Positions 39,208 through 54,643 of a stretch of DNA of 64,000 bases are shown here, in pieces. Origin of the DNA: an uncultured Verrucomicrobiae bacterium. GTDB taxonomy: Bacteria > Verrucomicrobiota > Verrucomicrobiia > Chthoniobacterales > UBA10450. Location of the stretch: positions 64,001 through 128,000 of the forward strand of contig CAVWPA010000001.1 in assembly GCA_963756875.1 (NCBI GenBank), written 5' to 3'. The position numbers were made by a program, and so were the translations under genes. The notes under the pieces were generated by a model, which ran no database searches, was not told where the DNA came from, and saw only the letters and a list, made by a program, of their open reading frames with translations. Numbering within the stretch: the stretch's first letter is position 1; every line of letters begins with the position of its first letter.

Positions 39208-40068
39208 GTGCACCGATTTTACATTTCGCCTGACGAATGGAATCCCGACGCGCTCGTTCTGAGCGGCCCGGAAGCGCACCATGCCCGGGACGTGTTGCGG
39301 ATGAAGCCGGGTGAAAAAGCGGTGCTTTTTAACGGGCGCGGCCACGAAGTCACCGCCGAGTTGCTCGGTTCCGATAACCGGATCCAACGTCACGTTGGCG
39401 AAATCCGGTTTCGCAAACTGCACGAAGCCAGAACGCCGCCGTTGCGTTGCCGCATCACGCTGGGCCAGGCCATTCCCAAAGGAAAAAACATGGACCTGAT
39501 CGTGCAAAAAGCCGTCGAGATCGGCGCGGCCGAGATCGCGCCGCTGATTTCCGAGCGCACGATCGTGGATCTCGATCCGAAGGAAGCCGCTCAAAAGCAA
39601 CTGAAATGGCAACAGGTGGCGATCGAGGCGGCCAAGCAATGCGGGCAAAACTGGCTGCCGCAGGTACAGCGCCCGAAAAAGCTGAAAGATTTCTTCGCCC
39701 AATTCCCTGTAGAGGCAGGCGTGTCGCCTGCGCGTCCTGCAATTTCGCAGCCGACACGGCTGCCGCCACAGAAGAGCGATCCAAATTTCGAGCTTCGCCT
39801 GATCGGCTCGCTCCAATCCGACGCGAAACATCTGAAGAAAGTCCTGGCTGATTATTCAGCTGAAACTGCCAGTCCGGTCGAAGACTCGCCGTGGAGAGCT
39901 CGGACCGTGCTTATGCTGATCGGCCCGGAAGGCGATTTCACGCCGGCCGAGCTAGCCCTGGCCAAAACCAACGGCTGCCGTCCCATCACGCTCGGCCCCA
40001 TCATCCTCCGTGTCGAGACTGCGGCGATCTACTGCCTCAGCGTTTTATCTTATGAATTGCTCGGCTAA
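39208..40068 (+). CDS. rsmE: 16S rRNA m3U1498 methyltransferase, with repeat-derived insertion
   Basis: HARDVLRM, QKAVEIG, AAKQCG, IGPEGDF, LGPIILRVETA. Confidence 0.95.
   Translation: MHRFYISPDEWNPDALVLSGPEAHHARDVLRMKPGEKAVLFNGRGHEVTAELLGSDNRIQRHVGEIRFRKLHEARTPPLRCRITLGQAIPKGKNMDLIVQKAVEIGAAEIAPLISERTIVDLDPKEAAQKQLKWQQVAIEAAKQCGQNWLPQVQRPKKLKDFFAQFPVEAGVSPARPAISQPTRLPPQKSDPNFELRLIGSLQSDAKHLKKVLADYSAETASPVEDSPWRARTVLMLIGPEGDFTPAELALAKTNGCRPITLGPIILRVETAAIYCLSVLSYELLG
39708..39770. repeat. Family-A REP doublet inside rsmE
   Basis: TGTAGAGGCAGGCGTGTCGCCTGC-N15-GCAGCCGACACGGCTGCCGCCACA. Confidence 0.9.
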
Positions 40069-40178
40069 GGGGCGTGGAATGGAGCCGCTGGGGAAGCGGC
40101 GACATAGATTGCAAGACCCGAGGGGCGAGGGTGAGCGAGCGGGAGGCGAGCGAATCAAACTCGCCGCGATTCTGGATT

Positions 40179-40213
40179 CGGCGTTGAGCGTTGGGCGTTG
40201 GACGTTGGACGTT
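40179..40213. repeat. Heptamer array (NNNCGTT)x5, single arm
   Basis: CGGCGTT GAGCGTT GGGCGTT GGACGTT GGACGTT. Confidence 0.75.
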
Positions 40214-40492
40214 GTTTGCCCATTGTCCAAAAAAGTGGGAGGGCCTGAAGCCCCGACTTTCCCTGGTAGGGGACGCGGCTCGCTTCCGCGGCTCGCTTGC
40301 GAAGGCGGGGCGTCAGACTTGCTCGGGCTGTCGAGCCGGGCAGAATTCCGTAGGAATCCCGTCACGGCTGAATGTCAAAGAAAGCCGGGCAAAATACTGC
40401 AGAAAAGGATTGACTTTTTCCGCGGAACTCCTCAACCTCGGAATCTTCACGGGTAAGGGAAAACAACGGAAAACAGTAATAATTGTAAGCTT

Positions 40493-41881
40493 ATGAAATC
40501 TCTGGGAACTCTCATTAAAGGAACTCTCTGGTGCAGCTTGTTAGGCATTTCGCTCATCGCGATCGAAAACGCTCAGGGCGCGGCGCAAACTTGGGGCAAT
40601 ACAGGCACTGACTTCAATGCCTCAGCAAGCTGGAATGCGGGTGCCGGCCCCGCGCCCGATTCCAACGGCGTCGGTCTTTTTACTACCGCGCCGACGATGC
40701 AGCCAAACGTAACCGCGGACCTTACGATCGCGGGACTTCGTTTTTCTGACGGCAGTTCTGGATACGATTTCACAAACTCCGGTGGCGCTGTGCTCACCCT
40801 TAACGGGGTTGATACGACCGGCTCCGGTGGCACTACGACCGCGAGTGCGACTGCTTTCCGCAACGACAATACGAGCGGCACCACTACAGTTGACGCTCCT
40901 TTGAACCTCGCGCCGTCCACAGGTATTTCCACAATCTATCAGGCCTCAGGAGATGGCAGTACATTGATCTTGAATGGCGACATTGGGCAGACCGGCACGG
41001 TGCATTTGAGCCTGAAGAACGGCACGATTCAACTTAACGGCAACAATTCCTTCACTAATGCAAGCATCGATGCGGCTGGCACGACCGTAGTTGTCGGTAA
41101 CAACAACGGTTTGGGTGCAGGTACCTTTACTATTAACAGCACTTCGGCACTCCAGGCGGGCGGTGGAGCGCGCACGCTTCCCAACAGCGTGGTGGTCGGT
41201 GGCACCACCACGATTAGTGGAAGTAATGCCATTACCTTTAACGGTAGTGTTACGAGTTCAGGTTCCAGTAGCCGCACACTGACAGTTAGCAATACCGGTG
41301 GCGTTACATTCGGCGGCACGGTGAATCTTGAAGAATCAGGCGCGCCCGCGGGGCGGGCGTTCACAATTAATGGAACTTCGGCCGTCAACATGAACGGTAC
41401 GGTGCAGGATGGCAGCGCTCAACCAGCCCTGCTGAAATACACCGGCTCAAATACTCTTACGCTCAATAATGCCAACACCTATTCCGGCGGCACCCAGGAG
41501 ACGATCGCCGGTAGCACGATTGTCGCGGCTCACGACGGCGCGCTCGGGACAGGCAACATCAGCCTCACAACTACAGGGGTGACATTGACCCTGCAGGGCG
41601 GTTCGCTCAACGATTACATCAACAACAACGCCATTTTGAGCTTCGTCACCGGGGATACCGTGAATCTTAACTTTAGCGGTGTGGACGTGATTGGTGGTCT
41701 GACCGTGGACGGTGTTATGCAGGGCCCCGGCCTTTACGGTGCGGGTGGCACCAACCCGGACAGCGCGTTTACCGGGAATGGCTTCCTGCAGATTGTTCCC
41801 GAGCCGGGCACATGGCTGCTGCTTTGCCTGGGTGCCGGGTTGCTCGGTGGCGTGCAGAGACTTCGCCGCAAACACGTCTAA
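40493..41881 (+). CDS. PEP-CTERM surface protein with autotransporter-associated beta-strand repeat
   Basis: Signal peptide, G/T/N-rich beta-helix, LTLNNANTYSGGT, C-terminal VPEPGTW-TM-RLRRK. Confidence 0.9.
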   Translation: MKSLGTLIKGTLWCSLLGISLIAIENAQGAAQTWGNTGTDFNASASWNAGAGPAPDSNGVGLFTTAPTMQPNVTADLTIAGLRFSDGSSGYDFTNSGGAVLTLNGVDTTGSGGTTTASATAFRNDNTSGTTTVDAPLNLAPSTGISTIYQASGDGSTLILNGDIGQTGTVHLSLKNGTIQLNGNNSFTNASIDAAGTTVVVGNNNGLGAGTFTINSTSALQAGGGARTLPNSVVVGGTTTISGSNAITFNGSVTSSGSSSRTLTVSNTGGVTFGGTVNLEESGAPAGRAFTINGTSAVNMNGTVQDGSAQPALLKYTGSNTLTLNNANTYSGGTQETIAGSTIVAAHDGALGTGNISLTTTGVTLTLQGGSLNDYINNNAILSFVTGDTVNLNFSGVDVIGGLTVDGVMQGPGLYGAGGTNPDSAFTGNGFLQIVPEPGTWLLLCLGAGLLGGVQRLRRKHV

Positions 41882-41913
41882 GGAATTACCTAAAACTTTC
41901 TCCTTAAGGTCTC

Positions 41914-41951
41914 CCCCGCTACTTGGCAGCAAGTAGCGGGGTTCTTGTTTT
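41914..41951 (+). terminator. Intrinsic terminator
   Basis: CCCCGCTACTTG-GCAG-CAAGTAGCGGGG followed by TTCTTGTTTT. Confidence 0.75.
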
Positions 41952-41979
41952 CCGTCTTCCTCCTTTCTGCCGCTGCCCC

Positions 41980-42042
41980 TGTAGAGGCAGCCGTGTCGGC
42001 TGCAAATCTATGTGAACCGCAGGCGGCACGCCTGCCTCTACA
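41980..42042. repeat. Family-A REP doublet, intergenic
   Basis: TGTAGAGGCAGCCGTGTCGGCTGC-N15-GCAGGCGGCACGCCTGCCTCTACA. Confidence 0.9.
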
Positions 42043-42167
42043 GTTTATGGAACAATTCGTCGGACAGATCGGAGAACACTTACCTGATGGAGCTGTGCAA
42101 TTCGCGCCTCGCCCAACTCTCAACGAAAGGGCCGCTTGCCGGCCCGTTCTCTCAACTCTCAACTTCC

Positions 42168-42638
42168 TCAGTAAATATACGGCCGCGGAAGCTGGAAGGC
42201 GTTCTGGATCAGTTCCAGCTGCGGTTTGGCGCCTTCGGGCATCAGCACTTCCACCACGTCGAACCGGAAGAAAATATCCGGATTATCGAGCAACCGCAGC
42301 CAGGCCAGGCCGCCCTGCGCGATGCGCCGCTGCTGGTCCCGATGCACCGCTGTCAGCGGACGCCCGAAATCCTGGCTGCCACGCGTTTTGACTTCCACGA
42401 ACACCAGCGTGTCTTGGTCGCGGCAAACGATGTCGATCTGGCCGCCGCGCCGCCCGCGAAAATCGCGATAGAGCACCTTGTAACCGTGCCGGCGTAAAAA
42501 GCGGCAGGCCAGTTTTTCGCCGAGCGCGCCACGCCGAATATGCTCAGGCTTAGGCTTGGGCGATTTCTTCGAGCGCCAGAAGCGGTTGCGCCACCGGCTC
42601 AAAAGAGCGGCGATGGATCGGACAGGGCCCGAATTCAT
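42168..42638 (-). CDS. yraN: YraN family (PD-(D/E)xK) protein
   Basis: GALGEKLA, GQIDIV, VFVEVKTR, RFDVV; start uncertain, overlaps rnhB end. Confidence 0.85.
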   Translation of the reverse strand: MNSGPVRSIAALLSRWRNRFWRSKKSPKPKPEHIRRGALGEKLACRFLRRHGYKVLYRDFRGRRGGQIDIVCRDQDTLVFVEVKTRGSQDFGRPLTAVHRDQQRRIAQGGLAWLRLLDNPDIFFRFDVVEVLMPEGAKPQLELIQNAFQLPRPYIY

Positions 42639-43194
42639 GGAGCTTGGTGAGGTGCAGTTCTGTGCCGTAACCTTTGTGCCGGCTGAAACAGTATGCGGGG
42701 AATTCACAACAGAAGTCACGCATCATCCGGTCCCGCGTTACCTTGGCGATCACGCTCGCGGCGGCGATGGTCAGGCTGTAACAATCGCCGTCGATGATCG
42801 CCGTCTGCGGAAACGGAAACGGAAAAACCGGCAGCCCATCGAGCAGAACATGGTCGGGTGGCGGCCCGGCCAGCGCAGTGATGGCGATGCGCATCGCTTT
42901 GTGGCTCGCGCGCAAAATGTTGATCCGGTCGATCTCGACGGAATCGACCACACCGATGGCCCATTGGATCCCGGAATTAGAGATTAGTTCGCCGTAGATT
43001 TTTTCCCGCAGCTCGGGTGCGAGTTGTTTGGAATCGTTCAGCTTCCGGTGCCGGAATTTTTCGGGGAGAACGACCGCGGCAGCCACGACAGGTCCGGCCA
43101 GCGCGCCGCGGCCTGCTTCATCGATCCCGGCGATCCGCGCGATACCAGTGGCGCGCAGTTTCTTTTCGTGACGAAATCCGCAGCGCCGGCGCAT
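42550..43194 (-). CDS. rnhB: Ribonuclease HII
   Basis: GIDEAGRG, DSKQL, AASVIAKVTRD, HKGYGT, HRRSF. Confidence 0.96.
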   Translation of the reverse strand: MRRRCGFRHEKKLRATGIARIAGIDEAGRGALAGPVVAAAVVLPEKFRHRKLNDSKQLAPELREKIYGELISNSGIQWAIGVVDSVEIDRINILRASHKAMRIAITALAGPPPDHVLLDGLPVFPFPFPQTAIIDGDCYSLTIAAASVIAKVTRDRMMRDFCCEFPAYCFSRHKGYGTELHLTKLHEFGPCPIHRRSFEPVAQPLLALEEIAQA

Positions 43195-43279
43195 CGCGCC
43201 ACTTTATGCACAAATCGTCCGAGTGTTCACAACGAAAAATGGCAAGGGGTAATTGGGCGGCATCGGTGATAGCGTGGCG

Positions 43280-43565
43280 AAGTTCCAAATCCCAACCACC
43301 GGCCGCCTTCGGCGGAAGCGCCAAATCCCAAGCTCCAAACCCCAGGGAAACTTCAAATCCCAAGCTCCAAAATTCAAAAGAGAGGTAGGGACGCCGTCCG
43401 GCAGCCGCCGGAGCCGGCCGATCGGCGCAGCGCGCCGACCCTACCAGACGGAGGCCAATTCCCAACGCCGAATTAAAAGAGACGCGGCACCCGGACAGCT
43501 CCCTGGGTTTTGAAGGTTGAATCTTGGAGCTTCCCTGGTGCTTGGAGGTTGGAGCTTGGTGCTTC
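43280..43565. repeat. Inverted heptamer array enclosing a GGTAGGG...CCCTACC element (43384..43445)
   Basis: Same heptamer units as 39017 and 44034. Confidence 0.78.
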
Positions 43566-43597
43566 GCGCCTGGGTTTGATGCTCCGGGTAGGCGCGT

Positions 43598-43939
43598 TTA
43601 TTCCCTGACAGCCGTCGCTTCCTTGCCTTTGCGGGTGCGCAGATAATTGAGCCGGGCGCGGCGTGCTTTGCCTGGTTGGTCTACTTCGACCTTGGCGATG
43701 CGCGGCGAATGGACCGGAAACCCGCGCTCCACCCCTTCCCCGTAGGAAATGCGGCGCACGGTGAATGTTTCGTTCAATCCACGGCCCTTGCGGCCGATGA
43801 CGATTCCGGCGAAGATCTGGATCCGCTCCTTGTCCCCTTCCACCACACGCGTGTGCACACGCACGCTGTCACCGACCTTGAAGTTGTTCGCTTCGGTTTT
43901 CTGCTGTTCTTTTTCGATCGCGTCGATGATCCGGTTCAT
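43598..43939 (-). CDS. rplS: 50S ribosomal protein L19
   Basis: [37 protein letters not shown]. Confidence 0.97.
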
Positions 43940-44033
43940 AAAGCTGCCCCTCGAATGTTACTTTGGCTCCGATAACGGGGCCGATATCTTCAGCGCGCGG
44001 GCGAAAAAATCAAATGAAACATGGAGGGGCAGC

Positions 44034-44166
44034 AAGCACCAAGTTCCAAGCACCAAATCCCAAGGAAGCTCCAAGCATCAAGCTTCAAATGAAGTGTTCG
44101 CGATCTCCCATTGTTGTTTGAAGATTGAAGTTTCCCTGGAGCTTGGATGTTGGAGCTTGGGGTTTC
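44034..44166. repeat. Inverted heptamer array
   Basis: AAGCACC AAGTTCC AAGCACC AAATCCC ... GGAGCTT GGATGTT GGAGCTT GGGGTTT. Confidence 0.8.
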
Positions 44167-44252
44167 GCGCAGGGCATCTCTCTTCGTCGCACCGCATACT
44201 GGAAAATTTTGGCGTGTAAAAGAACGAACGATGGCTAAGTTGCACGCCCTGC

Positions 44253-44326
44253 GCGCCCGTAGCTCAACTGGATAGAGCGTCGGCCTCCGGAGCCGAAGGT
44301 TGTGGGTTCGACCCCCGCCGGGCGCA
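44253..44326 (+). tRNA. tRNA-Arg(CCG), CCA not encoded
   Basis: Acceptor GCGCCCG/CGGGCGC, D-arm AGCTCAACTGGATAGAGC, anticodon arm TCGGC-CTCCGGA-GCCGA, GGTTCGA T-loop. Confidence 0.95.
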
Positions 44327-44389
44327 GTTGGGGCTTCGGGACTGCCCAACGCCGGTCGCCAATATCTGGATTGCCGCTCAGCGTTAGTT

Positions 44390-44620
44390 CAAAGTTTTGG
44401 CTATGATAGCTATGGCTATATCGGCGGCAATTGGGCCATCAGCCACAACACGATCCCAAACGTCTGTAACGACGAAGGCGACATTTACGAGCGTGAACGC
44501 TATAGCTCACCCAATCAGGACTTCCGCTCCCTCTTCAATTGCCCGCCGGGGGTCTATCAAGTCGACATCCTGGAGGCCGAGACGTTCATGAACGGGCCTA
44601 ACCAGAGGCGCTGTCCTTAG
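44390..44620 (+). pseudogene. Possible malectin-like domain fragment
   Basis: Reading frame IYERERYS...PPGVYQVDILEAETFMNGPNQR resembles malectin YxxERY...G.Y.V.L.FAE....PGQR; no plausible start, early stop. Confidence 0.4.
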
Positions 44621-44725
44621 GAGAGCATTCGGGCAAATCGCTAGTCGCTGCTGGAAAGCGACTTTTACTCAATCGAAAAGCTTGCTTTTGATGACGGTTC
44701 AAGTGCTCCGGTGCAAGGCCAAGAA

Positions 44726-44763
44726 TGTCCGATATCATGACACGAGTGTCCTATTAATAGACA
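44726..44763. promoter_or_regulatory. Two TGTC-N9-GACA boxes (putative bEBP upstream activator sites)
   Basis: TGTCCGATATCATGACA (44726) and TGTCCTATTAATAGACA (44747), 21 bp apart. Confidence 0.55.
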
Positions 44764-44806
44764 TAATTTTGGACGGTAATACGTCCTCCACCTAGGTAAA
44801 GGCGTT

Positions 44807-44823
44807 TTGGTACCGCCGTTGCT
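44807..44823 (+). promoter_or_regulatory. Putative sigma54 (-24/-12) promoter
   Basis: TTGGTACCGCCGTTGCT, GG-N10-GC spacing. Confidence 0.55.
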
Positions 44824-44839
44824 AACTGGGATTGGCCAT

Positions 44840-45316
44840 ATGTTTCTGCAAAAAACCCTACACATGAGTCAGTCGCTGGAAGAGTGCAAGGCGCGCTTCT
44901 CCAACATTCAGTCATACTGTCGCCAGTCTCTGACGCGTACTGAGGCGACCGTGACATCTTCCAAAACGGTTAACTTCAGTTTTAGCGGACCACTGGGCTT
45001 TCAAGCTCACACGGCGCTTCTGGCGGTCGACACCGAGTCGTCCGACGAATGCGCGTTTGAATCGGCGGGCGGTAACATTGATGTGATGGGCCTGGTTGAC
45101 CTCAGTGAGATCCGACCACACTGGACCGAGGTCACACTCATGGTGCATTACGACATCAAAAACAAGCTATTCGCATGGCTTGATCGGCGGTTGCACTTCG
45201 TCGACGCGTGCTTGAATTCGGAGCTCCGCAGTATCCGAGCACACTTCGAAGGAATTGCAGTGCCACGCGTCGTGCATTTGCCAATGCCACCGGTATTCGA
45301 AGCGTCTGCAATCTAG
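44840..45316 (+). CDS. SRPBCC/START-like hypothetical protein
   Basis: Beta-rich core with TEVTLMVHY and C-terminal helix; weak pattern match only. Confidence 0.55.
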   Translation: MFLQKTLHMSQSLEECKARFSNIQSYCRQSLTRTEATVTSSKTVNFSFSGPLGFQAHTALLAVDTESSDECAFESAGGNIDVMGLVDLSEIRPHWTEVTLMVHYDIKNKLFAWLDRRLHFVDACLNSELRSIRAHFEGIAVPRVVHLPMPPVFEASAI

Positions 45317-45367
45317 TGTTCAGCCATTTTATTTCTCTGCTAAGTCCGTTCGAATAAATCGAAGAAC

Positions 45368-46150
45368 ATGATCACACCTCTTGCTGAAATTGAAATCACC
45401 GCGACTAACGAATTCAGCGGCCCGGTTCACTTGGAGCGATTTCGGAGACCGGTCAGCTGCAAAGTTAAAGAAAACGTGCAGCGCTTCGATGCAATGCACG
45501 TCAATCTCGACGAACCAACCACGTCTCTCGAAACGGAGAAGGATCTGCCGCTTGGGCAGGCTTCGGCGCCGCTGCTCGATCCGGGGGTGCCATCGGACCT
45601 TGAATTAATGCATGGGATACAACGTAAAGATCCCAACGCTCTCTCCGAGCTTTATGACCGCTATAGTGGAATAATAAAAGCATTGGTTTTACGCGTAGTG
45701 AATAACGACGCGGAGGCGGATGATTTGCTGCAAGAAATATTTATGGAGATCTGGAATCAGGCCGGGAATTTCTCGGCTGGCAAAGGCAAGCCGCTGGGTT
45801 GGATGGTTACCTTAGCGCGCCGACGCGCCATCGACCGGCTAAGACAAAGACAAGCTTACGCCCGCGCCGGGGAGCGTCTGCAAAACGAGATTGACCAGCG
45901 ACAAAAGGCGTGTGGGAACGATTCCACGGCCGAAATTAACCTCGGCGATAAACGCCAGTTGATTCGCAAGGTGCTCGACTTGCTACCCCATCCGCAAAAG
46001 CAGGCTGTCGAACTTGCATTTTTTTTAGGTATGAGTCAGCGTGAAATCGCCGCGAATACGAATACACCATTAGGGACAGTCAAGACCCGGCTTGAATTAG
46101 GACTAAAAAAAATATATGAAGAGCTCAAAGGGTTAAGAGATGAACTTTGA
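45368..46150 (+). CDS. ECF sigma-70 factor (SigK-like)
   Basis: ALSELYDRY, ADDLLQEIF, RRAIDRLR, SQREIA..TPLGTVKTR; start may be later. Confidence 0.9.
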   Translation: MITPLAEIEITATNEFSGPVHLERFRRPVSCKVKENVQRFDAMHVNLDEPTTSLETEKDLPLGQASAPLLDPGVPSDLELMHGIQRKDPNALSELYDRYSGIIKALVLRVVNNDAEADDLLQEIFMEIWNQAGNFSAGKGKPLGWMVTLARRRAIDRLRQRQAYARAGERLQNEIDQRQKACGNDSTAEINLGDKRQLIRKVLDLLPHPQKQAVELAFFLGMSQREIAANTNTPLGTVKTRLELGLKKIYEELKGLRDEL

Positions 46151-46376
46151 GGCGTTCCAAAGCTATTCGCGGCTTTATGTGATAGGCACCCTTGAGCCCG
46201 AGGAACTCGAAGAGTTCGAAGAAGCGCGAAAGCATTTTGGTCAGCAAGCCGAAGATTTTATCCGCGACTGCTATGCGTTGCATGAAGCCTTTGCCCTTAG
46301 CCTTAAGCCGGCCAAATCCTCAGCCTCTCTCAAAGATAGGTTAATGTCGATGGTGCGCGAAAAGCAGCGGCGTTAA
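46140..46376 (+). CDS. Putative soluble anti-sigma domain protein
   Basis: LYVIGTLEPEELEEFE ... LKDRLM, typical of ASD N-termini; overlaps sigma 3' end. Confidence 0.65.
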   Translation: MNFEAFQSYSRLYVIGTLEPEELEEFEEARKHFGQQAEDFIRDCYALHEAFALSLKPAKSSASLKDRLMSMVREKQRR

Positions 46377-46483
46377 TCGCCGGAGTTTCCCGGTATCCAT
46401 TGGTCCACCCAGACTAAAATTCCGCAGGTGAATGGCAGAAGCGTCGGCCCGTTTCTTCTGTCTCTGCACCGCAATCGACTTTG

Positions 46484-47877: not shown

Positions 47878-47990
47878 AATGACTGCTTGTGCTCCACCAG
47901 CGGCAACGGCATGCTTGTGAGCAGCGCCAACCCGGGCGGATCATCCCGAGCGCGCAATCCGCTGTTGTGGGCCTCGACAATAACGCGCAT
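47874..47990 (-). pseudogene. Histidine kinase HATPase C-terminal remnant
   Basis: MRVIVEAHNSGLRARDDPPG...LPL, with stop overlapping regulator start (ATGA). Confidence 0.5.
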
Positions 47991-48204
47991 GAGATTTAGA
48001 TCAAGATTGTAACAGCCCCAGCCGAACTTGTGAAGTGGCTCGCGATCCTAATTTTCCCGTGGAGGTTGAGCGCCTTTGGGTCCCCGAAGCACGAACACAA
48101 AAAATTACCCGAACGTATGGGGTGATTTCGCGCGAGGCCCTGGCGCTTCGTCCTTGACGGTCGAGGTGAGAGGTTGAGCATCTTCAGCGAAGGTTAAGTT
48201 TTCT

Positions 48205-48417
48205 ATGGCGGCCCCCACCAAGCGTGCAGAGCGGGAACTGATCCGGGCCAAGGAAGCGCTGAAGCGGAGGACCGAGGAACTCGCCAACTCGCTCTTGGGA
48301 GATCTACGCGTGTTCCGGGTGATCGGAACTCTGGTGGGTATCAGCCTGATCTTCAGCGGTGTCTCCAGATTTATGCTTTCAATGGCCATCCGCAGGACAG
48401 GCGCTGCGGCAGCATAA
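48205..48417 (+). pseudogene. Chimeric remnant: kinase coiled-coil linker + HdeD-like membrane protein C-terminus
   Basis: KRAERELIRAKEALKRRTEELANS joined to VIGTLVGISLIFSGVSRFML. Confidence 0.4.
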
Positions 48418-48503
48418 TTTTGGGAGCTCTCGCTCCGCGCGCGCTGCCGGCGAAAGCAGCCCCAGGGAGCGCCTGCGGCCCGTCAACAAACCGTTCAAGA
48501 ATC

Positions 48504-48527
48504 GCAGGCGACACGCCTGCCGCTACA
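48504..48527. repeat. Family-A REP single unit
   Basis: GCAGGCGACACGCCTGCCGCTACA. Confidence 0.8.
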
Positions 48528-48544
48528 GCAGAATCGCAGGCGAT

Positions 48545-48875
48545 CTACGCCAGCGCTTCGATCCGGTTGAGCAAATCCTTCTTGCTCGTCATTCCGGTAA
48601 CTTGGTCGCGAAGCTGGCCATTCTTGAAAAGGAGCAGCGAAGGAATGGCCCGGATATTGTCACTTGGAGGAGAGGCTCTGGTTATCGTCCACGTTGACCT
48701 TGGCCACTTTGAGCGCGCCCGCTTTTTCCCTGGCGATTTCGTCGAGCAGCGGCGCAATCAGTTTGCATGGGCCGCACCATTCCGCCCAAAAATCGACCAG
48801 CACCGGCTTGTCGCTATGCACTACTTCCTGGTCAAAATTCGATTCGTTCAGATTAATCGTCTCTGAGTTTTCCAT
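48545..48875 (-). pseudogene. trxA: Thioredoxin with apparent 1-nt insertion near 48661 (pseudogene or sequence error)
   Basis: [19 protein letters not shown] where AAG TAC AAT (KYNIRAIP) expected. Confidence 0.85.
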
Positions 48876-49480
48876 CAGGAAATGTAATTCAAGATTTGAA
48901 TAATCAAAACGACCGCGGAGACACCAAGGAGAGCCCAGTAAAATACGCCGGGGACTTCCTCGAAAACCGGGCTGTCACCGGTGCTCGGGCTTGGACCCGC
49001 CTCGCTTGCCGCCGTCGTCATGATCGGTGCGGCGGGCGCGGAGCTCGCGGGCATGTCGATCAGCGGCTGGGTCTTTTTCATCTGCACCGCGGGACCGGCT
49101 GTCTTTACCGGATCCGGGAGCACTGTGATTCGTGCCGTTTCTTTTTTCAGGCTGGTCGCTGAAGGAGTGGCAGGCGCAGGTGCGGGCGCAGCGCTTGAGG
49201 CGGGCGCATTCGACTGACTTGGCGACGCGCCTGGCGGCGGCGGAATAAAACGCGGCGCCTGGACGGGTTTGCTCGGCGCGGGAGGGACCAATGTCCTGGC
49301 CATGGGAGGACGAGGAGCGCCTTCACGAGGCGGATTAGCGGGTGGGAGAGGCGCGCTCACGGGTGGACGCGTCGGTAAAGTGATTCGCACCGTGTCGCGC
49401 CCTTCACCGGCCTTCGCCGGTTGCGGCGGCGGAACCGCGATGCGGACCGTCTCTTTTTTTGGTTCAGTCGGCTCGGCCAT
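48875..49480 (-). CDS. Pro-rich disordered protein with C-terminal TM anchor
   Basis: Repeated KKETVRI/RDTVRI/KKETARI motifs; stop overlaps trxA start. Confidence 0.7.
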
Positions 49481-49633
49481 GAGATTGTTAATGCAATTAA
49501 AGATTGCCCGAAAATGCCCGCTTTGTCACTGGTTAACTTAAAAAACAACCTCTTCGCAACCGGCGGAGCCGTGTAATCAATGGCGCAATTCGGAGGCATA
49601 GGGCAGGTGGAGCGCCCGCCCTACAATGATTGC

Positions 49634-51181
49634 TCAGGCGAGCAGATCGTAGCCGCGGCTTCCGGATATTCTTCGGCGCACGAATTCGCCCACGGGCGCC
49701 GCTTCTGACAGAACGACGCGCGCATCGACGTCCGGCGCGTCCGCTTCGGTCCGCGCAATAAGCGGTTGGTCTACCAGTAACTTCAATTCGCAGCCAATCT
49801 TTGCGGAGGCAATTTCGTGCGCGATCTTTTGCTGAAGGGACATCGCGGCCCGGTACCGGGCGTTTTTCGTTTTCGCGGGAACCTGCTCCTCCATCTTCGC
49901 GGCGCGCGAGCCCTCTTCCCGGGAATACTTGAAAATACCGAGTCGTTCGAATCGCGTACGCTCGATAAAATCCATGAGCGTTTCGAATTGCCGGTCTGTT
50001 TCTCCCGGGAAACCAGCGATAAACGTCGTGCGCAACGCCACGCCCGGAATTCCCGCGCGCAATCTGTCGATCAGATTCTCGATGTGTTCTCGCGACGTTT
50101 CCCGGCGCATTTGCGCCAGCATCGTTTCGTCGATGTGCTGAAGCGGGATATCGATGTAACGGGCGACCTTGTCGCATTGCGCGACGGTCTCGATTAATTC
50201 GTCGCTCCAGTGCGCCGGATGAGTGTAAAGAAGCCGCACCCAAAATTCGCCGTCGATCTCCTGTATTTCACGCAACAGTCCGGCAAGGGTCGGGCCACGC
50301 GAAGAATCGACCGCCTGCCGTGGCCCCGCCTTCTCGCTCCACAAGTCCATTCCGTAGTAGGTTGTATCCTGGCTGATCAAATTAATTTCGCGCACGCCTT
50401 CGGCGACGAGCCCGCGGAGTTCCGCCAGCACGGACTCGGGCGAACGGGAGCGATGTTTCCCGCGCATTTGCGGAATCACGCAAAAACTGCACGGATGATT
50501 GCACCCCTCGGCGATTTTTAGATAAGCCGAGTGAGCGGGCGTAAGTCGAAACCGCGGCGTATCGTAATCGGGAATGTAATGGGGACGCGCGGTGACAAAA
50601 TCAAGAGGGCTCTGTTCATCGTGCGAAATAGAAGAAACGCCGAACGTCCAACGCCCAACGTCCAACGCCGAAGTCTGATTCGGCCCGGCGTTGCCTGCGT
50701 TGGGCGTTGGGCGTTCGACGTTGAGCGTTCGGCGTTTGCTTATGATTTTCTCAACAATCGCTCCCAATTCGCTCACCTGGTCCAGCCCGATAAAGGCATC
50801 TACCTCCGGCAGAGCTTCGCGCAATTCCCGCGCAAAGCGCTGCGACATGCAGCCGCTGACGATCAATTTTTGTTCCGGCCGCTTTTGCAGGCCGCGACGT
50901 TGATGCGCTTCAAGGATCGCGTTGATCGATTCTTCCTTGGCGGAATCGATAAACGCACAAGTGTTCACCACCAGAACGTCGGCTTCCTCCGCGCTCGAAG
51001 TGATTTGCATTCCTCGCTGCAACACACTTCCCAGCATGATCTCCGCGTCGACCAGGTTCTTCGCGCAGCCGAGGCTGATCATGCCGACCTTCGGCGGCTT
51101 TGGTGGCAGGCGTGTCGCCTGTTTCCATTCGGGGTTCGCAGCCGACACGGCTGCCTCTACAGAAGAATCATCTTCGCGCAT
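49634..51181 (-). CDS. rimO: Ribosomal protein S12 methylthiotransferase, with two repeat-derived insertions
   Basis: SLGCAKNLVD, NTCAFI, KIAEGCNHPCSFC, APDVD. Confidence 0.95.
   Translation of the reverse strand: MREDDSSVEAAVSAANPEWKQATRLPPKPPKVGMISLGCAKNLVDAEIMLGSVLQRGMQITSSAEEADVLVVNTCAFIDSAKEESINAILEAHQRRGLQKRPEQKLIVSGCMSQRFARELREALPEVDAFIGLDQVSELGAIVEKIISKRRTLNVERPTPNAGNAGPNQTSALDVGRWTFGVSSISHDEQSPLDFVTARPHYIPDYDTPRFRLTPAHSAYLKIAEGCNHPCSFCVIPQMRGKHRSRSPESVLAELRGLVAEGVREINLISQDTTYYGMDLWSEKAGPRQAVDSSRGPTLAGLLREIQEIDGEFWVRLLYTHPAHWSDELIETVAQCDKVARYIDIPLQHIDETMLAQMRRETSREHIENLIDRLRAGIPGVALRTTFIAGFPGETDRQFETLMDFIERTRFERLGIFKYSREEGSRAAKMEEQVPAKTKNARYRAAMSLQQKIAHEIASAKIGCELKLLVDQPLIARTEADAPDVDARVVLSEAAPVGEFVRRRISGSRGYDLLA
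50635..50737. repeat. Inverted heptamer array (AACGYCS) inside rimO
   Basis: Five AACGYCS units, spacer, then complementary units. Confidence 0.85.
51099..51161. repeat. Family-A REP doublet in rimO N-terminus
   Basis: GGCAGGCGTGTCGCCTG ... GCAGCCGACACGGCTGCCTCTACA. Confidence 0.88.
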
Positions 51182-51193
51182 GATCCCGGCCCG

Positions 51194-52156
51194 TTATTCG
51201 ACGGTGACATCGCTGTCGCCTTCCGCGATCAGCTTTCCGTTTTTTCTGATCTGAATCGCGTCGCGATCCAGGACCCGCACGGCGATGTGTTGCCCGCTAA
51301 ATTCCATTGCCCCGTCATCTGGAGAAATCCAACGCTCGAAAGGCGGTTTCTTTGTTCCGCTATCGACCACTACCTTGATGTAAGTTTTCTTGAGCGGCTT
51401 GATTGTTACGTGATTTGGCCCGCCTGATTCAGCGGCCTTCTCGGTCGCGCCGGCTTTCGCCAAATCCTCCGGGCGCACGGGTTCTGCTCGACGGATCACC
51501 GGCTCTTTTGGCGCCGGCGTGGAGATAGGCGCCGCGGTTGCCGCGCTGGCGAGGACAGGAGAATTGGCCGCAACGGGAGCAGCCGCCGTCGGAACGGCCG
51601 TTGGCAAAGGCACAACCTTCCTTGGCGTGTTTGCGGGCGCCACCGCATGCGGCGTCGCGCGAGGCCCGGTAATCACCGGCGGTTGCACGGGCGATGAGAC
51701 TTCGGCTACGCCGATCCGTTCCTCTTTCCGCGGTGCGAGCCTTTGAATATTGAGAAACAATCTCATGAGGAGAAATCCGATGAGAATTGCCCCGACGGCG
51801 ATAATCAGCGGCCACGACGACGAGCGACCCGTTCTGGGACGGCGAACCCGCGGAGCGCGCTCCCTTCGTGACACCGGCGCAGGTTCCTCCTGCAGGTAGG
51901 AATAACCGTCCACCGTCACTTGCGCGGGTGTCTCAAACATCTCCAGATAAGGACTCACGTCGACATCAAGAAACTTTCCATAAATGAGAAGAAAACCCTT
52001 CGCGTAGGCCAAACTGGGAAATCGCGAAAAATCGTCGGCCTCGATCTCCGCCAGACGCGACGGGCGGATCTTGGTCATCCGAGCGGCTTCGTCCAGAGTC
52101 AGGCCTCGAGCCATGCGGGCTTCCTGAAATTTTTTTCCGAGACCTTCGATGGACAT
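51194..52156 (-). CDS. rodZ: RodZ-like HTH membrane protein
   Basis: N-terminal HTH (YAKGFL), single TM, Pro/Ala linker, C-terminal beta domain; between ftsK and rimO. Confidence 0.8.
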   Translation of the reverse strand: MSIEGLGKKFQEARMARGLTLDEAARMTKIRPSRLAEIEADDFSRFPSLAYAKGFLLIYGKFLDVDVSPYLEMFETPAQVTVDGYSYLQEEPAPVSRRERAPRVRRPRTGRSSSWPLIIAVGAILIGFLLMRLFLNIQRLAPRKEERIGVAEVSSPVQPPVITGPRATPHAVAPANTPRKVVPLPTAVPTAAAPVAANSPVLASAATAAPISTPAPKEPVIRRAEPVRPEDLAKAGATEKAAESGGPNHVTIKPLKKTYIKVVVDSGTKKPPFERWISPDDGAMEFSGQHIAVRVLDRDAIQIRKNGKLIAEGDSDVTVE

Positions 52157-52174
52157 GTTTTGGGGGCTTTCCGG

Positions 52175-54643
52175 CTAAACGGCGGCGTCAAGATCTACCA
52201 GAATCTCGCGCGGCTTTGCACCTTCGCCGGGACCCAAAATACCGCGCTGCTCGAGAATATCAACGATGCGCGCCGCGCGTGTGTAGCCGAGACGAAGCCG
52301 GCGCTGCAACAATGAGGTGGATGCGCGCTTTTCCTGGCGGATGATTTCGAGACATTTTTCCACAAGCTCTTCGTCTTCGTCGCTCACCTCCTCTGCGGGC
52401 GCCGCAGTGGATTCCAGTTTTTCATGCATGGTCGGGTCGAAAGCGGGGCGGCCCTGCCCGGAAACAAATTCTACGAGGCGCCGGATCTCTTCGTCGGTCA
52501 CCAGGACGCCTTGAGCGCGGGTCAATCGCGAAGCGCTCGGCGGAAGATAAAGCATGTCTCCCTGGCCTAACAAACGGTCCGCGCCGTTCTCATCGAGAAT
52601 CACCCGGCTATCGATCTTGCTCGCGACCTGAAAGGCAATCCGGCTTGGAATGTTGGCTTTGATCACGCCGGTGATGACGTCGGCCCGCGGCGTTTGAGTG
52701 GCGACAATCAAATGAATGCCGGCCGCGCGCGCCATTTGCGTGATCCGCGCAATCGCGCTCTCCACATCGGCCGGCGCCGTTTGCATCAAATCGGCCAGCT
52801 CGTCGATGACGACGACGAAATAAGGTAATTTGTCCGGGATCGGAATTTCAGCTTTTTCCGCTTCTGTAGTGGCAGCCGTGTCGGCTGCGTTTGAAGATTT
52901 TGCAGGCGACACGCCTGCCTCTACAGCATCAGCGTCATGCTTCTTTTTCACTGGTCGCCCGTTAAAACCAATGATGTTACGGACTCCAACCCGCGCGAAA
53001 AGTTTATAGCGCCGCTCCATTTCATCGATGAGCCAGCGCAAGGCGAGCAGCACTTTTTTGGGATCGGTCACGACGGGGAAGGCCAGATGAGGCAGCGAAT
53101 TGTAAAGCTGCATCTCCACAACTTTGGGATCGATCATGATAAAACGCAGTTCTTCCGGTGTGAAACGGAAGAGCATGCTGGCGATGAGCGCGTTGATGCA
53201 GACGCTTTTGCCGCTGCCAGTCGTCCCGGCGACCAGTAAATGCGGCATTTGTCCCAGATCGGTGATGATGGCCTTGCCGTACACGTCTTTGCCCAGAGCG
53301 AGCGGGATTCGCGCGTGCGTTCTCGCTTCCTCCCAGTCCGGCGATTCCAACAGTTCCCGCAGCGTGACAGTCACTTTGCGCGTGTTCGCGAGCTCGATTC
53401 CCACCGTGTCCTTACCCGGGATCGGCGCGAGAATGTTGATCCGCTCAGCGCGAGTGGCCCGGGCCAGGTCGCGTTCGAGGCTGACGATTTTGTCCACCCG
53501 AACCCCCTTGGCCGGATAGACTTCGTAGCGCGTAATTGTCGGTCCTTTGGTAATGTCGCCCGCTGCGACCGCAATTCCGAATTGGCCGAGCGTTTCAATC
53601 AAAGTCTGCTGAACGCGTTGCAGCTCTGCCGGGTCGGCTCCGCCGCGCCCTTCGGGATCGTGTTCGGCGAGCAGGTCGAGCCCGGGGAGCGTGTAAGTTT
53701 TCGGGTCCCAGACCCGGCTCGTTAGGCCAGGCGTCGCCACCGCTCTTTTCCCGCCGCCGCGCAACTCGGCGAGCGACGGTTTCCTGCGTGGCGTCGCTGC
53801 GTCGCTTGGCAGCGCAGTGGTATCGACCACTTTCGGTTTCGGGCGATCGGCCAGTTCTTCAGGCGAAATGAATGTGGCTGCCGGTTCGGGCACCGCGGCA
53901 CCCTTTTTCTTTAATCGTTTCTCAAGCTGGCGGCTTTGCTTTGCCAGCTCCTTTTGGCTGATCTCGAGCTGGCCTTTAAGATCCGATTTTCGCAGTTGCC
54001 GATGCAAACGCCATTCGTGCAATTTGGCGAAGGCCGCGCGTGTGCCCAATACCGTTTGCCTGACCAGATAAATCGGCCGCAGCCCGGTCATAAGAATTAA
54101 CGTTGCAACGTAAACACCGGCGAGAAGAATGAGCGATCCGACTTTGCCCATGGAGCTGAGCAGCAGCGTTTTTCCAAAAAAGTAGCCGATCCAGCCGCCG
54201 GGACCGGGGATATTGAAAGCTGCTTTCCAACCCAGGAGATGGCGTGTCTGCAATTGCAACAGGCAGGCCCCGGACGCGATGAACAAAACCATCCACGGGA
54301 GGCGCCGCGTCACGCGTAAACTCGGGTGGAACAGTTTTGCGGCGCCGAAACCGAGCAGGATCGCCGCGAGCAAGTACGACGCGGCACCAATCATGAAGTA
54401 GCAAATACTTGCCAGGATTGCGCCGAACGGTCCGATGAAGTTCTGGGCCGGCCAGTTGGGCGGGGAGAGATAGCTCCACGGCACCCAGGACGGAAGATCC
54501 TTTGGATTGTACGAAACCAGCGCGAGAAAAGTTACAGTTCCGACGACAAGCAGAATGAGAGCGAAGACTTCGTTCCAGGCGTTGCTTTTTTTTGCGCTGC
54601 GTGCCACCGGCCAAGATAGTAATCCCGTGCTCGCGCCTTTCAA
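52175..54643 (-). CDS. ftsK: DNA translocase FtsK, with repeat-derived insertion
   Basis: 4TM N-terminus, GTTGSGKS, IDELAD, ATQTP, gamma domain LQRRLRLGY. Confidence 0.96.
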   Translation of the reverse strand: MKGASTGLLSWPVARSAKKSNAWNEVFALILLVVGTVTFLALVSYNPKDLPSWVPWSYLSPPNWPAQNFIGPFGAILASICYFMIGAASYLLAAILLGFGAAKLFHPSLRVTRRLPWMVLFIASGACLLQLQTRHLLGWKAAFNIPGPGGWIGYFFGKTLLLSSMGKVGSLILLAGVYVATLILMTGLRPIYLVRQTVLGTRAAFAKLHEWRLHRQLRKSDLKGQLEISQKELAKQSRQLEKRLKKKGAAVPEPAATFISPEELADRPKPKVVDTTALPSDAATPRRKPSLAELRGGGKRAVATPGLTSRVWDPKTYTLPGLDLLAEHDPEGRGGADPAELQRVQQTLIETLGQFGIAVAAGDITKGPTITRYEVYPAKGVRVDKIVSLERDLARATRAERINILAPIPGKDTVGIELANTRKVTVTLRELLESPDWEEARTHARIPLALGKDVYGKAIITDLGQMPHLLVAGTTGSGKSVCINALIASMLFRFTPEELRFIMIDPKVVEMQLYNSLPHLAFPVVTDPKKVLLALRWLIDEMERRYKLFARVGVRNIIGFNGRPVKKKHDADAVEAGVSPAKSSNAADTAATTEAEKAEIPIPDKLPYFVVVIDELADLMQTAPADVESAIARITQMARAAGIHLIVATQTPRADVITGVIKANIPSRIAFQVASKIDSRVILDENGADRLLGQGDMLYLPPSASRLTRAQGVLVTDEEIRRLVEFVSGQGRPAFDPTMHEKLESTAAPAEEVSDEDEELVEKCLEIIRQEKRASTSLLQRRLRLGYTRAARIVDILEQRGILGPGEGAKPREILVDLDAAV
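52865..52925. repeat. Family-A REP doublet inside ftsK
   Basis: TGTAGTGGCAGCCGTGTCGGCTGC-N13-GCAGGCGACACGCCTGCCTCTACA. Confidence 0.9.

What the first reader, a model, noticed from the sequence alone, without database searches (positions are those of the whole stretch)
39708..52925. One REP-doublet family inserted in frame in three conserved housekeeping proteins (rsmE, rimO, ftsK)
Seen: a 61-63 nt element (two inverted 24-nt units, TGTAGWGGCAGSCGTGTCGSCTGC, with a 13-15 nt spacer) occurs intergenically (41980..42042; half copy 48504). It also occurs inside three open frames: rsmE 39708..39770 (VEAGVSPARPAISQPTRLPPQ), rimO 51099..51161 (VEAAVSAANPEWKQATRLPPK) and ftsK 52865..52925 (VEAGVSPAKSSNAADTAATT). 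All three are read in the same entry frame (GTA GAG GCA = VEA). Known: Rickettsia palindromic elements create peptide inserts this way, while REPs are normally extragenic. Inference: an RPE-like system donating peptide segments to proteins in a probably free-living verrucomicrobium, with three of four full copies here being coding.
Basis: partly seen in the sequence, partly recalled or inferred. Interest (0 to 1): 0.82.

Follow-up and report, generated by a model that had tools for sequence, protein, structure and literature searches.

The report
Mobile REP hairpins translated inside housekeeping genes
A small mobile DNA palindrome (a REP element moved by its own transposase) sits in frame inside the rsmE and ftsK genes of a soil verrucomicrobium and adds floppy loop peptides; this was already described for another verrucomicrobium, but these copies are old and have kept their hairpins.

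Summary
The 24-nt unit occurs 9 times in the window (0 expected) and 120 times in the 2.69-Mb genome, at 63 loci. It is a classic GTAG-headed REP/REPIN family. Its cognate RAYT transposase gene (G000:C3:11960-12409) is flanked by REP arrays on both sides.

The rsmE and ftsK copies are truly internal and in frame. Outgroup orthologues and some close relatives lack them, and the RsmE segment models as a disordered loop. The rimO copy lies in an N-terminal extension, so its translation is uncertain.

Genome-wide, 9 of 63 loci are internal to conserved proteins: RsmE, FtsK, MutS, UvrA, PolB, DnaX, GGT, E2 and PurL.

The phenomenon is published (Di Nocera et al. 2013, Opitutus terrae), so this is a new member of a known kind.

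What may be new is the age of two inserts. The rsmE and ftsK inserts are shared across many genera of the family. Their unit hairpins are kept by compensatory changes, including at paired synonymous sites. The cause is open: selection, self-templated correction or renewal from the REP pool.

The parts
39708..39770 (+). REP doublet (two inverted 24-nt GTAG-headed units, 15-nt spacer) read in frame inside rsmE as PVEAGVSPARPAISQPTRLPPQ (residues 167-188)
   Evidence: missing from 13 of 19 orthologues; pLDDT below 50 and no secondary structure at residues 171-190; RNA hairpin -36.9 kcal/mol, z -4.8
39208..40068 (+). rsmE (16S rRNA m3U methyltransferase, PUA + SPOUT domains), the only copy found in the genome
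   Evidence: Pfam PF04452 and PF20260; 1 match in G000; PDB 5o95 aligns to query 7-165 and 207-281, leaving 166-206 unaligned
41980..42042 (.). intergenic REP doublet of the same family
   Evidence: flank coding scores 1.7 and -12.1; hairpin -44.8 kcal/mol
48504..48527 (-). single REP unit, intergenic
   Evidence: flank coding scores -9.6 and 2.3
51099..51161 (-). REP doublet between the stop of the upstream gene and the conserved start region of rimO. In frame with rimO if translation starts at ATG 51181 (residues 8-28) or at the GTG inside the REP; untranslated if it starts at ATG 51082.
49634..51181 (-). rimO-like radical-SAM methylthiotransferase (longest ORF)
   Evidence: Pfam UPF0004, Radical_SAM and TRAM_2; orthologues in 20 of 20 relatives searched
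50627..50725 (-). inverted repeat of another family (arms built of CAACGCC / GGCGTTG heptads) read in frame inside rimO, about residues 153-185
   Evidence: 139 blastn-short HSPs in the genome; no segment there in 11 of 17 informative orthologues, a related one only in G009
52865..52925 (-). REP doublet (13-nt spacer) read in frame inside ftsK as AVEAGVSPAKSSNAADTAATT (residues 573-593)
   Evidence: variable loop of the motor domain relative to PDB 2iuu; orthologous copies in many genera; hairpin -38.9 kcal/mol, z -6.2
52175..54643 (-). ftsK (DNA translocase), the only copy found in the genome
   Evidence: Pfam FtsK_4TM, FtsK_alpha, FtsK_SpoIIIE and FtsK_gamma; 1 match in G000

Best explanation
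The element is a GTAG-headed REP, mostly arranged as inverted doublets (REPINs). It belongs to a REP-RAYT system that is inherited vertically in a family of soil Verrucomicrobiota (Chthoniobacterales, close to Ca. Udaeobacter). The HUH/Y1 transposase (RAYT) at G000:C3:11960-12409 presumably cuts and moves single-stranded REP hairpins. That step is inferred from what is established for RAYTs and the IS200/IS605 family. Copies land throughout the genome. Those that survive inside genes add a whole number of codons, avoid the stop-containing frame (TG|TAG) and the Cys/Arg/His-rich frames (CRGRRVAC, RRHACLY), and fall in loops, linkers or variable segments. They are then translated as 8-22-residue Ala/Gly/Ser/Pro/Thr-rich segments (VEAGVSPA ... 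QPTRLPPQ or AADTAATT). The rsmE and ftsK inserts are of this kind and are old. They arose within the family and are still recognisable in many genera. They have been lost or replaced in some lineages, in rsmE by a second GTAG REP family at the same site. Their two small hairpins have been kept by compensatory substitutions. The peptides are most likely tolerated passengers and not designed additions.
For: Family and transposase:
- There are 120 units at 63 loci: 28 simple doublets, 30 single units and 5 clusters.
- A 149-aa ORF scores 95.6 bits against NCBIfam NF047646, REP-associated tyrosine transposase (cut-off 80). It is flanked by REP arrays at C3:11641-11958 and C3:12419-12650.
- 20 of the 80 kept RAYT relatives in public MAGs have the same REP unit within about 70 nt of the gene.
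- The REP was found in 12 of 18 same-family genomes and in 0 of 12 genomes of other families of the order.

Insertion:
- RsmE: 13 of 19 orthologues have nothing at the site.
- MutS: none of 21 orthologues has the REP.
- GGT: 9 of 10 orthologues lack an insert.
- FtsK: G010 and G006 lack it.

Functional hosts:
- Pfam domains span the inserts.
- The genes are single-copy, with 72-86% identity to orthologues and no stops.

Tolerated sites:
- RsmE model has mean pLDDT 83.6, with residues 171-178 and 180-190 below 50 and without secondary structure.
- The FtsK insert lies in a loop that is variable in all orthologues and relative to PDB 2iuu.
- The E2 copy is in the lipoyl/E3-binding linker, and the DnaX copy follows domain III.

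Frames:
- 8 of 9 internal copies enter as V-x-A-G/A-V-S/P-P/A-A. The ninth is a reversed single unit read as AGDTPAST.
- No internal copy uses the Cys/Arg frames. Those appear only in ORFs without coding signal or at 5' ends.

Age:
- A REP unit is recognisable in the FtsK loop DNA of 16 of 29 parsed genomes. The peptide is recognisable throughout the 17-row family clade, which has 100% support.
- The spacer is shared between G000 and G012, whereas spacers of different loci within G000 are unrelated.
- In the RsmE loop the REP is recognisable in 12 of 32 parsed genomes.

Hairpins kept:
- ftsK, 17 genomes: 83.1% of cells paired against 74.9% in shuffles (0/500); 21 cells changed on both sides against 7.6 (0/500); slid controls 26-61%.
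- rsmE, 13 genomes: 92.9% against 87.8% (0/500); 8 cells against 2.5 (0/500); slid controls 29-50%.
- The pair formed by the third codon positions of Ala (GCN) and Pro (CCN) reads AU:6, CG:4, GC:4, other:3.

Precedent: PMC3733652.
Against: - No direct evidence of translation or transcription. No RNA run was found.
- Mobility of the REP and activity of the RAYT are inferred, not shown.
- Doublets of 61, 63 and 64 nt all occur in frame, so the exact inserted unit and target are not defined. No target duplication is visible.
- Spacers differ between all loci. That does not fit simple copying of a whole REPIN.
- Gene calls outside the window rest on my own codon-usage score plus Pfam, not on an annotation.
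- The 30 loci returned per family search are the best-scoring ones, which favours genomes that share the insert.
- Overall nucleotide identity of the ftsK REP between genomes is not clearly above the gene average: G012 0.84 against 0.75, with 21% of windows as high; G001 and G011 are not higher.
- In the slid controls for ftsK, the count of pairs with both-side changes is as high as in the real structure (3-8 against 7). Only the cell counts, percentage paired and covariation score discriminate.
Confidence: 0.85

Rival explanations
1. The hairpins inside ftsK and rsmE are kept because the host, or the REP-RAYT system, needs the nucleic-acid structure there. Possible roles are an mRNA stability or translation-pausing element, a DNA site for RAYT, gyrase or IHF, or a protected 'safe harbour' from which the REPIN population renews itself.
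For: Compensatory changes keep both unit stems in orthologous coding copies at two independent loci, including at paired synonymous third positions. Meanwhile the encoded residues change: S to L, W or S, and P to S or A. The doublets fold at -37 to -45 kcal/mol, z -4.8 to -6.7.
Against: The same pattern is expected without any function, from quasi-palindrome templated correction during replication (a known mutational process; recalled, not tested here) or from gene conversion or re-insertion from each genome's REP pool. The insert was lost or replaced in G010, G006, G017, G084, G098 and G046 for ftsK, and in G010, G008 and G012 for rsmE. Identity of the region is not above the gene average in 2 of 4 comparisons.
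Confidence: 0.2
2. The REP-encoded loops have been co-opted for a protein-level function in FtsK and/or RsmE.
For: The peptides persist across at least 11 genera. Amino-acid identity of the FtsK segment between G000 and G012 is 0.90, against 0.80 for the rest of the protein.
Against: The segment is predicted to be disordered. Several lineages lack it, or carry an unrelated repeat peptide at the same site. Conservation follows base pairing rather than residues. Against G001, G009 and G011, amino-acid identity of the segment is below the gene average.
Confidence: 0.07
3. The rimO copy is an ordinary extragenic REP in the 5' leader or intercistronic spacer. Translation starts at ATG 51082 and the in-frame reading is a by-product of two of three REP frames being open.
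For: Pfam and orthologue similarity begin after the REP. A GAAGG lies 5 nt before ATG 51082. The published catalogue warns that N-terminal REPs are often mis-annotated.
Against: Starting at 51082 drops the K-V-G residues that are conserved, or nearly so, in the 17 informative orthologues. No other start codon lies between the REP and them. ATG 51181 follows the upstream stop by 12 nt. Orthologues carry N-terminal tails of 3-27 residues. G011 has a decayed REP upstream in the same frame, differing by a 3-nt indel. The copy is in the same benign frames as the internal ones.
Confidence: 0.4
4. Assembly or binning artefact: the REPs were spliced into genes by mis-assembly of a metagenome-derived genome.
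For: REPs are repeats and the genome is only 87.6% complete.
Against: The same inserts, at the same codon positions, occur in many independently assembled genomes. Reading frames are intact on both sides.
Confidence: 0.01

Closest known systems
Intragenic GTAG-tagged REPs, especially families GTAG-17/18/19 of Opitutus terrae (Di Nocera, De Gregorio and Rocco 2013, BMC Genomics 14:522, PMC3733652; I read passages and Additional file 3 part 1)
   Same: GTAG head plus a 6-9-bp stem. Dimers encode about 20-30 residues in frame. The host is a verrucomicrobium. The same kinds of host proteins are hit (uvrA, PurL-type synthase, E2 acyltransferases, polymerases), with an excess in replication and repair. 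The same caveat applies to N-terminal copies.
   Different: A different sequence family: their peptides are VAGVADPGPGSASPA, GTGVPPV and VGPALAAG, ours VEAGVSPA..QPTRLPPQ/AADTAATT. The order is different (Chthoniobacterales-like, not Opitutales). In the passages I read, that paper does not follow orthologous copies across genera or test stem covariation.
REPIN-RAYT systems (Nunvar et al. 2010, PMC2817692; Bertels and Rainey 2011, PMC3116915; search listings and abstracts only)
   Same: Inverted REP doublets that fold into one long hairpin. There is a single cognate RAYT flanked by REPs. Inheritance is vertical and persistence in a lineage is long.
   Different: Described as extragenic, whereas here 9 of 63 loci are inside genes. 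Spacers here are unrelated between loci.
Rickettsia palindromic elements (Ogata et al. 2000, 2002; known to me from passages in PMC10969869 and PMC3733652; the 2002 paper could not be opened)
   Same: Palindromic repeats inserted in frame in many unrelated housekeeping genes, compatible with protein folding.
   Different: RPE-1 is about 150 bp. The short RPE-4/-6 belong to the CGTC-tagged super-family. Here the element is 61-64 nt, GTAG-tagged and has a cognate RAYT. The host is free-living and not an obligate intracellular parasite.

Membership tests
GTAG-type REP / REPIN-RAYT system | Short (20-40 bp) imperfect palindrome preceded by a GTAG (GTRG) tetranucleotide | tested here: met
   T-GTAG-WGGCAGSCG-TGT-CGSCTGC: a 7-bp stem with a 3-nt loop. 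The S...S positions co-vary.
GTAG-type REP / REPIN-RAYT system | Many dispersed copies, commonly as inverted pairs that can fold into one long hairpin | tested here: met
   120 units at 63 loci; 28 simple doublets and 5 clusters. Folds of -28 to -45 kcal/mol.
GTAG-type REP / REPIN-RAYT system | Cognate RAYT (HUH/Y1 transposase) gene flanked by the same REPs | tested here: met
   PF01797 hit. NF047646 at 95.6 bits, above the cut-off of 80. REP arrays on both sides. The same arrangement in 20 of 80 related loci.
GTAG-type REP / REPIN-RAYT system | Extragenic location | tested here: not met
   9 of 63 loci are internal to conserved genes, 2 more lie in C-terminal tails and at least 7 at 5' ends of long ORFs. 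The 2013 catalogue shows that this feature is not absolute for the family.
GTAG-type REP / REPIN-RAYT system | Mobilisation by the RAYT | not testable with these tools
   Only presence/absence between genomes is seen.
Rickettsia palindromic elements | Sequence families of Rickettsia: RPE-1 about 150 bp; short RPEs CGTC-tagged | tested here: not met
   The element is 61-64 nt, GTAG-tagged and in a verrucomicrobium.
O. terrae GTAG-17/18/19 families | Same consensus and encoded peptides | tested here: not met
   None of the 70 O. terrae rows shows VEAGVSPA, QPTRLPPQ or AADTAATT.
MITE | Terminal inverted repeats with a target-site duplication | tested here: not met
   Flanks of 28 doublets show only a degenerate extension of the inverted repeat (yTTCC...GGAAr) and no direct repeat. 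This was visual inspection, not a formal test.

The most novel reading that the evidence does not exclude
In this verrucomicrobial family, REP hairpins embedded in essential genes (ftsK, rsmE) are not decaying passengers. They have been actively maintained as hairpins since the family arose. The cause would be either host selection for an mRNA or DNA structure, or RAYT-dependent renewal: precise excision and re-insertion at the same codon-phase site, including exchange between two GTAG REP families in the RsmE loop. On this reading, disordered protein loops act as long-term safe harbours of a REPIN population, and loop length becomes a reversible character.
Probability: 0.25. Interest if true: 0.65.

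Novelty: new member of a known kind. Interest (0 to 1): 0.42.

Why it matters
The finding explains odd 20-residue low-complexity segments in otherwise highly conserved proteins of a very abundant but uncultured soil lineage. It warns annotators that such segments are mobile DNA and not lineage-specific motifs. It also offers natural tests of which loops of RsmE, FtsK, MutS, UvrA and other proteins tolerate insertions. The cross-genus data add a testable question: why do palindromes that have become coding sequence keep their stems for so long?

Tried and rejected
- Expression: the look-up of sequencing runs listed no RNA holder. The three soil-metagenome DNA runs that I laid gave only short contigs. 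None bridges a REP site of this strain. The joints near 39661-39787 and elsewhere have sides under 30 nt and were taken at 88% likeness, so they say nothing.
- FtsK structure: the fragment model (residues 425-700) came out poor, mean pLDDT 57.9. I do not use it beyond noting the unstructured insert. No fold search was run.
- Test for extra DNA-level conservation of the ftsK REP against the rest of the gene: inconclusive.
- Long REPIN hairpin (unit 1 paired with unit 2) in orthologous ftsK copies: weaker support than for the unit hairpins, 80.1% paired with 14/500 shuffles as high.
- Two regular expressions failed at first and were corrected. G067 and G112 and G101 could not be parsed and are left out of the counts.
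- Ogata et al. 2002 (PMC186582) is not held. Whether stem covariation of coding palindromes was already shown for RPEs therefore stays open. Searches for 'palindromic element' + compensatory + in-frame + Rickettsia and for Udaeobacter + palindrom found nothing.
- Earlier notes of this scan: nothing on this genome or this sequence.
- Considered and rejected: translational bypass, or intron- or intein-like removal. The frames are open and the insert adds whole codons, so no such mechanism is needed.
Full report
**Observation.** The 24-nt unit TGTAGWGGCAGSCGTGTCGSCTGC (up to 3 mismatches) occurs 9 times in the window. None is expected in 100 dinucleotide-preserving shuffles. The matches are four inverted doublets (39708-39770, 41980-42042, 51099-51161, 52865-52925) and one single unit (48504-48527). 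Pfam names them:
- RsmE: PUA_4 plus Methyltrans_RNA. The latter covers residues 79-280 and so spans the insert at 167-188.
- A RimO-type methylthiotransferase: UPF0004 31-132, Radical_SAM, TRAM_2.
- FtsK: four domains. FtsK_SpoIIIE covers 428-652 and spans the insert at 573-593.

**What the element is.** The window is G000:C1:64001-128000 of a 2.69-Mb, three-contig genome with 56.8% G+C and 87.6% completeness.
- Genome-wide there are 120 units at 63 loci: 28 simple head-out doublets, 30 single units and 5 clusters.
- Each unit is a GTAG head followed by a 7-bp stem and a 3-nt loop. The two S positions co-vary.
- Doublets fold into one long hairpin of -28 to -45 kcal/mol (z -2.6 to -6.7).
- A search for Y1_Tnp found six genes. 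The best hit is a 149-aa ORF at C3:11960-12409. It carries the HIH motif and a YVRDNP motif (the motif names are from my own knowledge). It scores 95.6 bits against NCBIfam 'REP-associated tyrosine transposase' (cut-off 80).
- REP arrays lie directly on both sides of that gene, at C3:11641-11958 and C3:12419-12650.
- Its closest public relatives (72-56% identity) are in MAGs labelled Ca. Udaeobacter, Chthoniobacterales or Verrucomicrobiae. 20 of the 80 kept loci have the same REP unit next to the gene.
- The REP (up to 2 mismatches) was found in 12 of 18 genomes of the same family and in 0 of 12 genomes of other families of the order. One of the 12 is the unpublished G014.

This is therefore a GTAG-type REP/REPIN-RAYT system in a soil verrucomicrobium.

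**Are the segments insertions?**
- *RsmE.* 13 of 19 orthologues read FF-AQQSAF-DLRLIGSLQ with nothing in between. Two of those 13 are the unpublished G002 and G007. The other six carry some insert. PDB RsmE 5o95 aligns to query 7-165 and 207-281 only.
- *FtsK.* G010 and G006 lack the segment. Against P. aeruginosa FtsK (2iuu) the query loop is 12 residues longer.
- *Single copy.* Both genes gave one match each in G000. They are 72-86% identical to their orthologues and contain no stops.
- *Structure.* An AlphaFold2 model of RsmE built on 17 sequences has mean pLDDT 83.6. Residues 171-178 and 180-190 are below 50 and lack secondary structure; they lie between helix 159-164 and strand 196-200. 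The FtsK fragment model was poor (57.9) and is not relied on.

**rimO.** The REP lies between the stop of the upstream gene (12 nt before ATG 51181) and the conserved K-V-G-M-I-S-L-G-C start region.
- The only in-frame start codons are ATG 51181, a GTG inside the REP, and ATG 51082. The last follows the conserved KVG and has GAAGG 5 nt upstream.
- Orthologues show no similarity upstream of KVGM but do have tails of 3-27 residues. G011 has a decayed REP there in the same frame.
- I put translation of this copy at about 0.6.
- Independently, rimO residues ~153-185 (window ~50627-50725) are an inverted repeat of a different family, with 139 blastn-short HSPs in the genome. It is missing from 11 of 17 informative orthologues, replaced by shorter unrelated segments in 5, and related only in G009. 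So rimO does carry an internal in-frame repeat, but not the one reported.

**Genome-wide count.** I asked three things of each locus: a spanning ORF, at least 150 nt of ORF on each side, and a positive codon-usage score on both flanks. 9 of 63 loci passed. Pfam supports the hosts.
- Doublets: RsmE, FtsK, MutS (domain III), gamma-glutamyltranspeptidase (just before the DTIY autoprocessing threonine; that role is from my own knowledge), a UvrA-like protein (between LSGGE and the Walker B motif) and a family-B DNA polymerase.
- Single units: the E2 acyltransferase linker, DnaX after domain III, and a PurL-like protein.
- Two more loci lie in C-terminal tails, and at least seven at 5' ends of long ORFs (rimO, rho and others) where translation is doubtful.
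- Five of the nine hosts act on DNA, echoing the published remark on replication and repair genes.
- 8 of 9 internal copies enter in the frame V-x-A-G/A-V-S/P-P/A-A. Doublets leave as QPTRLPPQ (3) or AADTAATT (3). None uses the CRGRRVAC or RRHACLY frames, and the third forward frame starts with TAG. With two open entry frames, six of six doublets in one frame has a chance of 1/64. This is my own arithmetic and assumes independence.

**Age.**
- The MutS and GGT inserts are specific to G000: none of 21 MutS orthologues has the REP, and 9 of 10 GGT orthologues have no insert.
- The FtsK and RsmE inserts are old. REP-derived peptides sit at the same FtsK position throughout the family clade (17 rows, 100% SH-aLRT) in a tree built from FtsK plus MutS with the insert columns removed.
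- In a wider sample (best 30 loci of 100 genomes), a REP unit is recognisable in the loop DNA of 16 of 29 parsed genomes.
- G000 and G012 share the spacer, whereas spacers of different loci within G000 are unrelated. These are therefore one orthologous insertion.
- G010, the closest relative, lacks it, which implies loss or replacement.
- In the RsmE loop, 12 of 32 parsed genomes show the REP at the DNA level and several more in decayed form. Six carry a second GTAG REP family (peptide VAAVYDRR) at the same site. G010, G008 and G012 are empty. Genomes of other families of the order are empty. Both samples favour genomes resembling G000.

**Hairpins kept.**
- Seven orthologous ftsK copies: the two unit stems are paired in 87.8% of cells, and 5 of 14 pairs show changes on both sides (1/500 shuffles as high).
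- Seventeen ftsK copies: 83.1% paired against 74.9% (0/500); 21 cells changed on both sides against 7.6 (0/500); covariation 0.256 against 0.117 (0/500); slid controls 26-61% paired. One caveat: the number of pairs with a both-side change (7) is matched by some slid controls (3-8).
- The stem pair formed by the third positions of the Ala and Pro codons reads AU:6, CG:4, GC:4, other:3. Meanwhile the encoded residues change.
- rsmE replicates this with 13 copies: 92.9% against 87.8% (0/500); 8 cells against 2.5 (0/500); slid controls 29-50%.
- Overall identity of the region is not clearly above the gene average.
- The stems are therefore maintained. Whether this is by selection, by self-templated correction of quasi-palindromes (recalled mechanism) or by renewal from the REP pool cannot be decided here.

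**What is known.** Di Nocera et al. 2013 (passages and Additional file 3 part 1) list intragenic GTAG and CGTC REPs.
- The most GTAG cases (70 rows) are in the verrucomicrobium Opitutus terrae, including both uvrA genes, a PurL-type synthase, E2 acyltransferases and polymerases.
- They note the excess in replication and repair genes and the doubt about N-terminal copies.
- Their peptides differ from ours, so this is a different REP family in a different order.
- RPEs of Rickettsia are the classical parallel but are not the same family.
- Notes of this scan report the same phenomenon in other phyla.
- I found no paper on such repeats in Udaeobacter, and none of the passages I read reports stem covariation of orthologous coding copies. 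I could not open Ogata et al. 2002.

**Verdict.** The insertion reading is right for rsmE and ftsK and open for rimO. The mechanism is a REP-RAYT system filtered by selection, not a peptide-donating device. The phenomenon is published, so the novelty is that of a new member, with one possibly new aspect: ancient coding copies that keep their hairpins.

Noticed in passing
window 50627-50725 (rimO residues ~153-185); a further copy at window 40177-40214, just downstream of rsmE: A second repeat family: inverted arms made of CAACGCC/GGCGTTG heptads (peptides ERPTPNA... and ...LDVGRWTFGV). It gives 139 blastn-short HSPs in the genome. It is read in frame inside rimO and is absent from most orthologues.
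   Followed up: partly
whole genome G000: At least 13 high-copy palindromic families, several with GTAG heads, and six Y1_Tnp genes. The Y1_Tnp genes of L003 and L004 are flanked by inverted copies of family 1 (GGGGAGCGCACGCGCCTCGCGTGC). That of L005 has a family 13 unit about 200 nt away. A crude k-mer count finds in-frame copies inside long coding ORFs for 13 of the 16 largest families.
   Followed up: partly
G000:C3:700925-705364 (UvrA-like ORF, 1479 aa): This one protein carries in-frame pieces of several repeat families: GSARALAC/GSARASRA, IASTRGACAPQ, SVAAVYDRRMNSSDAHRAPLQ, ASPART and the REP studied here. It is far longer than a usual UvrA.
   Followed up: no
G000:C2, about 24.1-28 kb (L004): A Y1_Tnp domain lies inside an open frame of about 1540 aa that also contains in-frame repeat peptides. 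This may be read-through of repeat arrays or a real fusion.
   Followed up: no
RsmE loop in G063, G006, G073, G076, G058 and G033: A different GTAG REP family (peptide SVAAVYDRR...) occupies exactly the site that the VEAGVSPA REP occupies in G000. A third peptide type (VATGLRPV) appears in G055 and G033. The site is either a hot spot or a place where REPs replace one another.
   Followed up: partly
G000:C3:92952-93014 (GGT) and orthologues: The native sequence at the landing site reads K-x-V-E-P-G-x-P (GTCGAGCCGGGA..CC) and resembles the REP head V-E-A-G-V-P (GTAGAGGCAGGCGTGCC). G009 has an unrelated palindromic insert directly after the same motif. This may hint at target preference or microhomology.
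   Followed up: no
window 62095-62123 (G000:C1:126095-126123): An AT-rich perfect palindrome, AAACTTGACTGCTTAAAGCAGTCAAGTTT (19 regions genome-wide), lies in frame (KLDCLKQSSL) in a 297-aa ORF.
   Followed up: no
FtsK matches in G001, G003, G016 and G047: Each match is reported with one in-frame TGA inside ftsK.
   Followed up: no
G000:C3:470207, 903720 and 1661657: Three 58-nt doublets share identical spacers and identical 15-nt flanks, so they are parts of a larger repeated unit.
   Followed up: no
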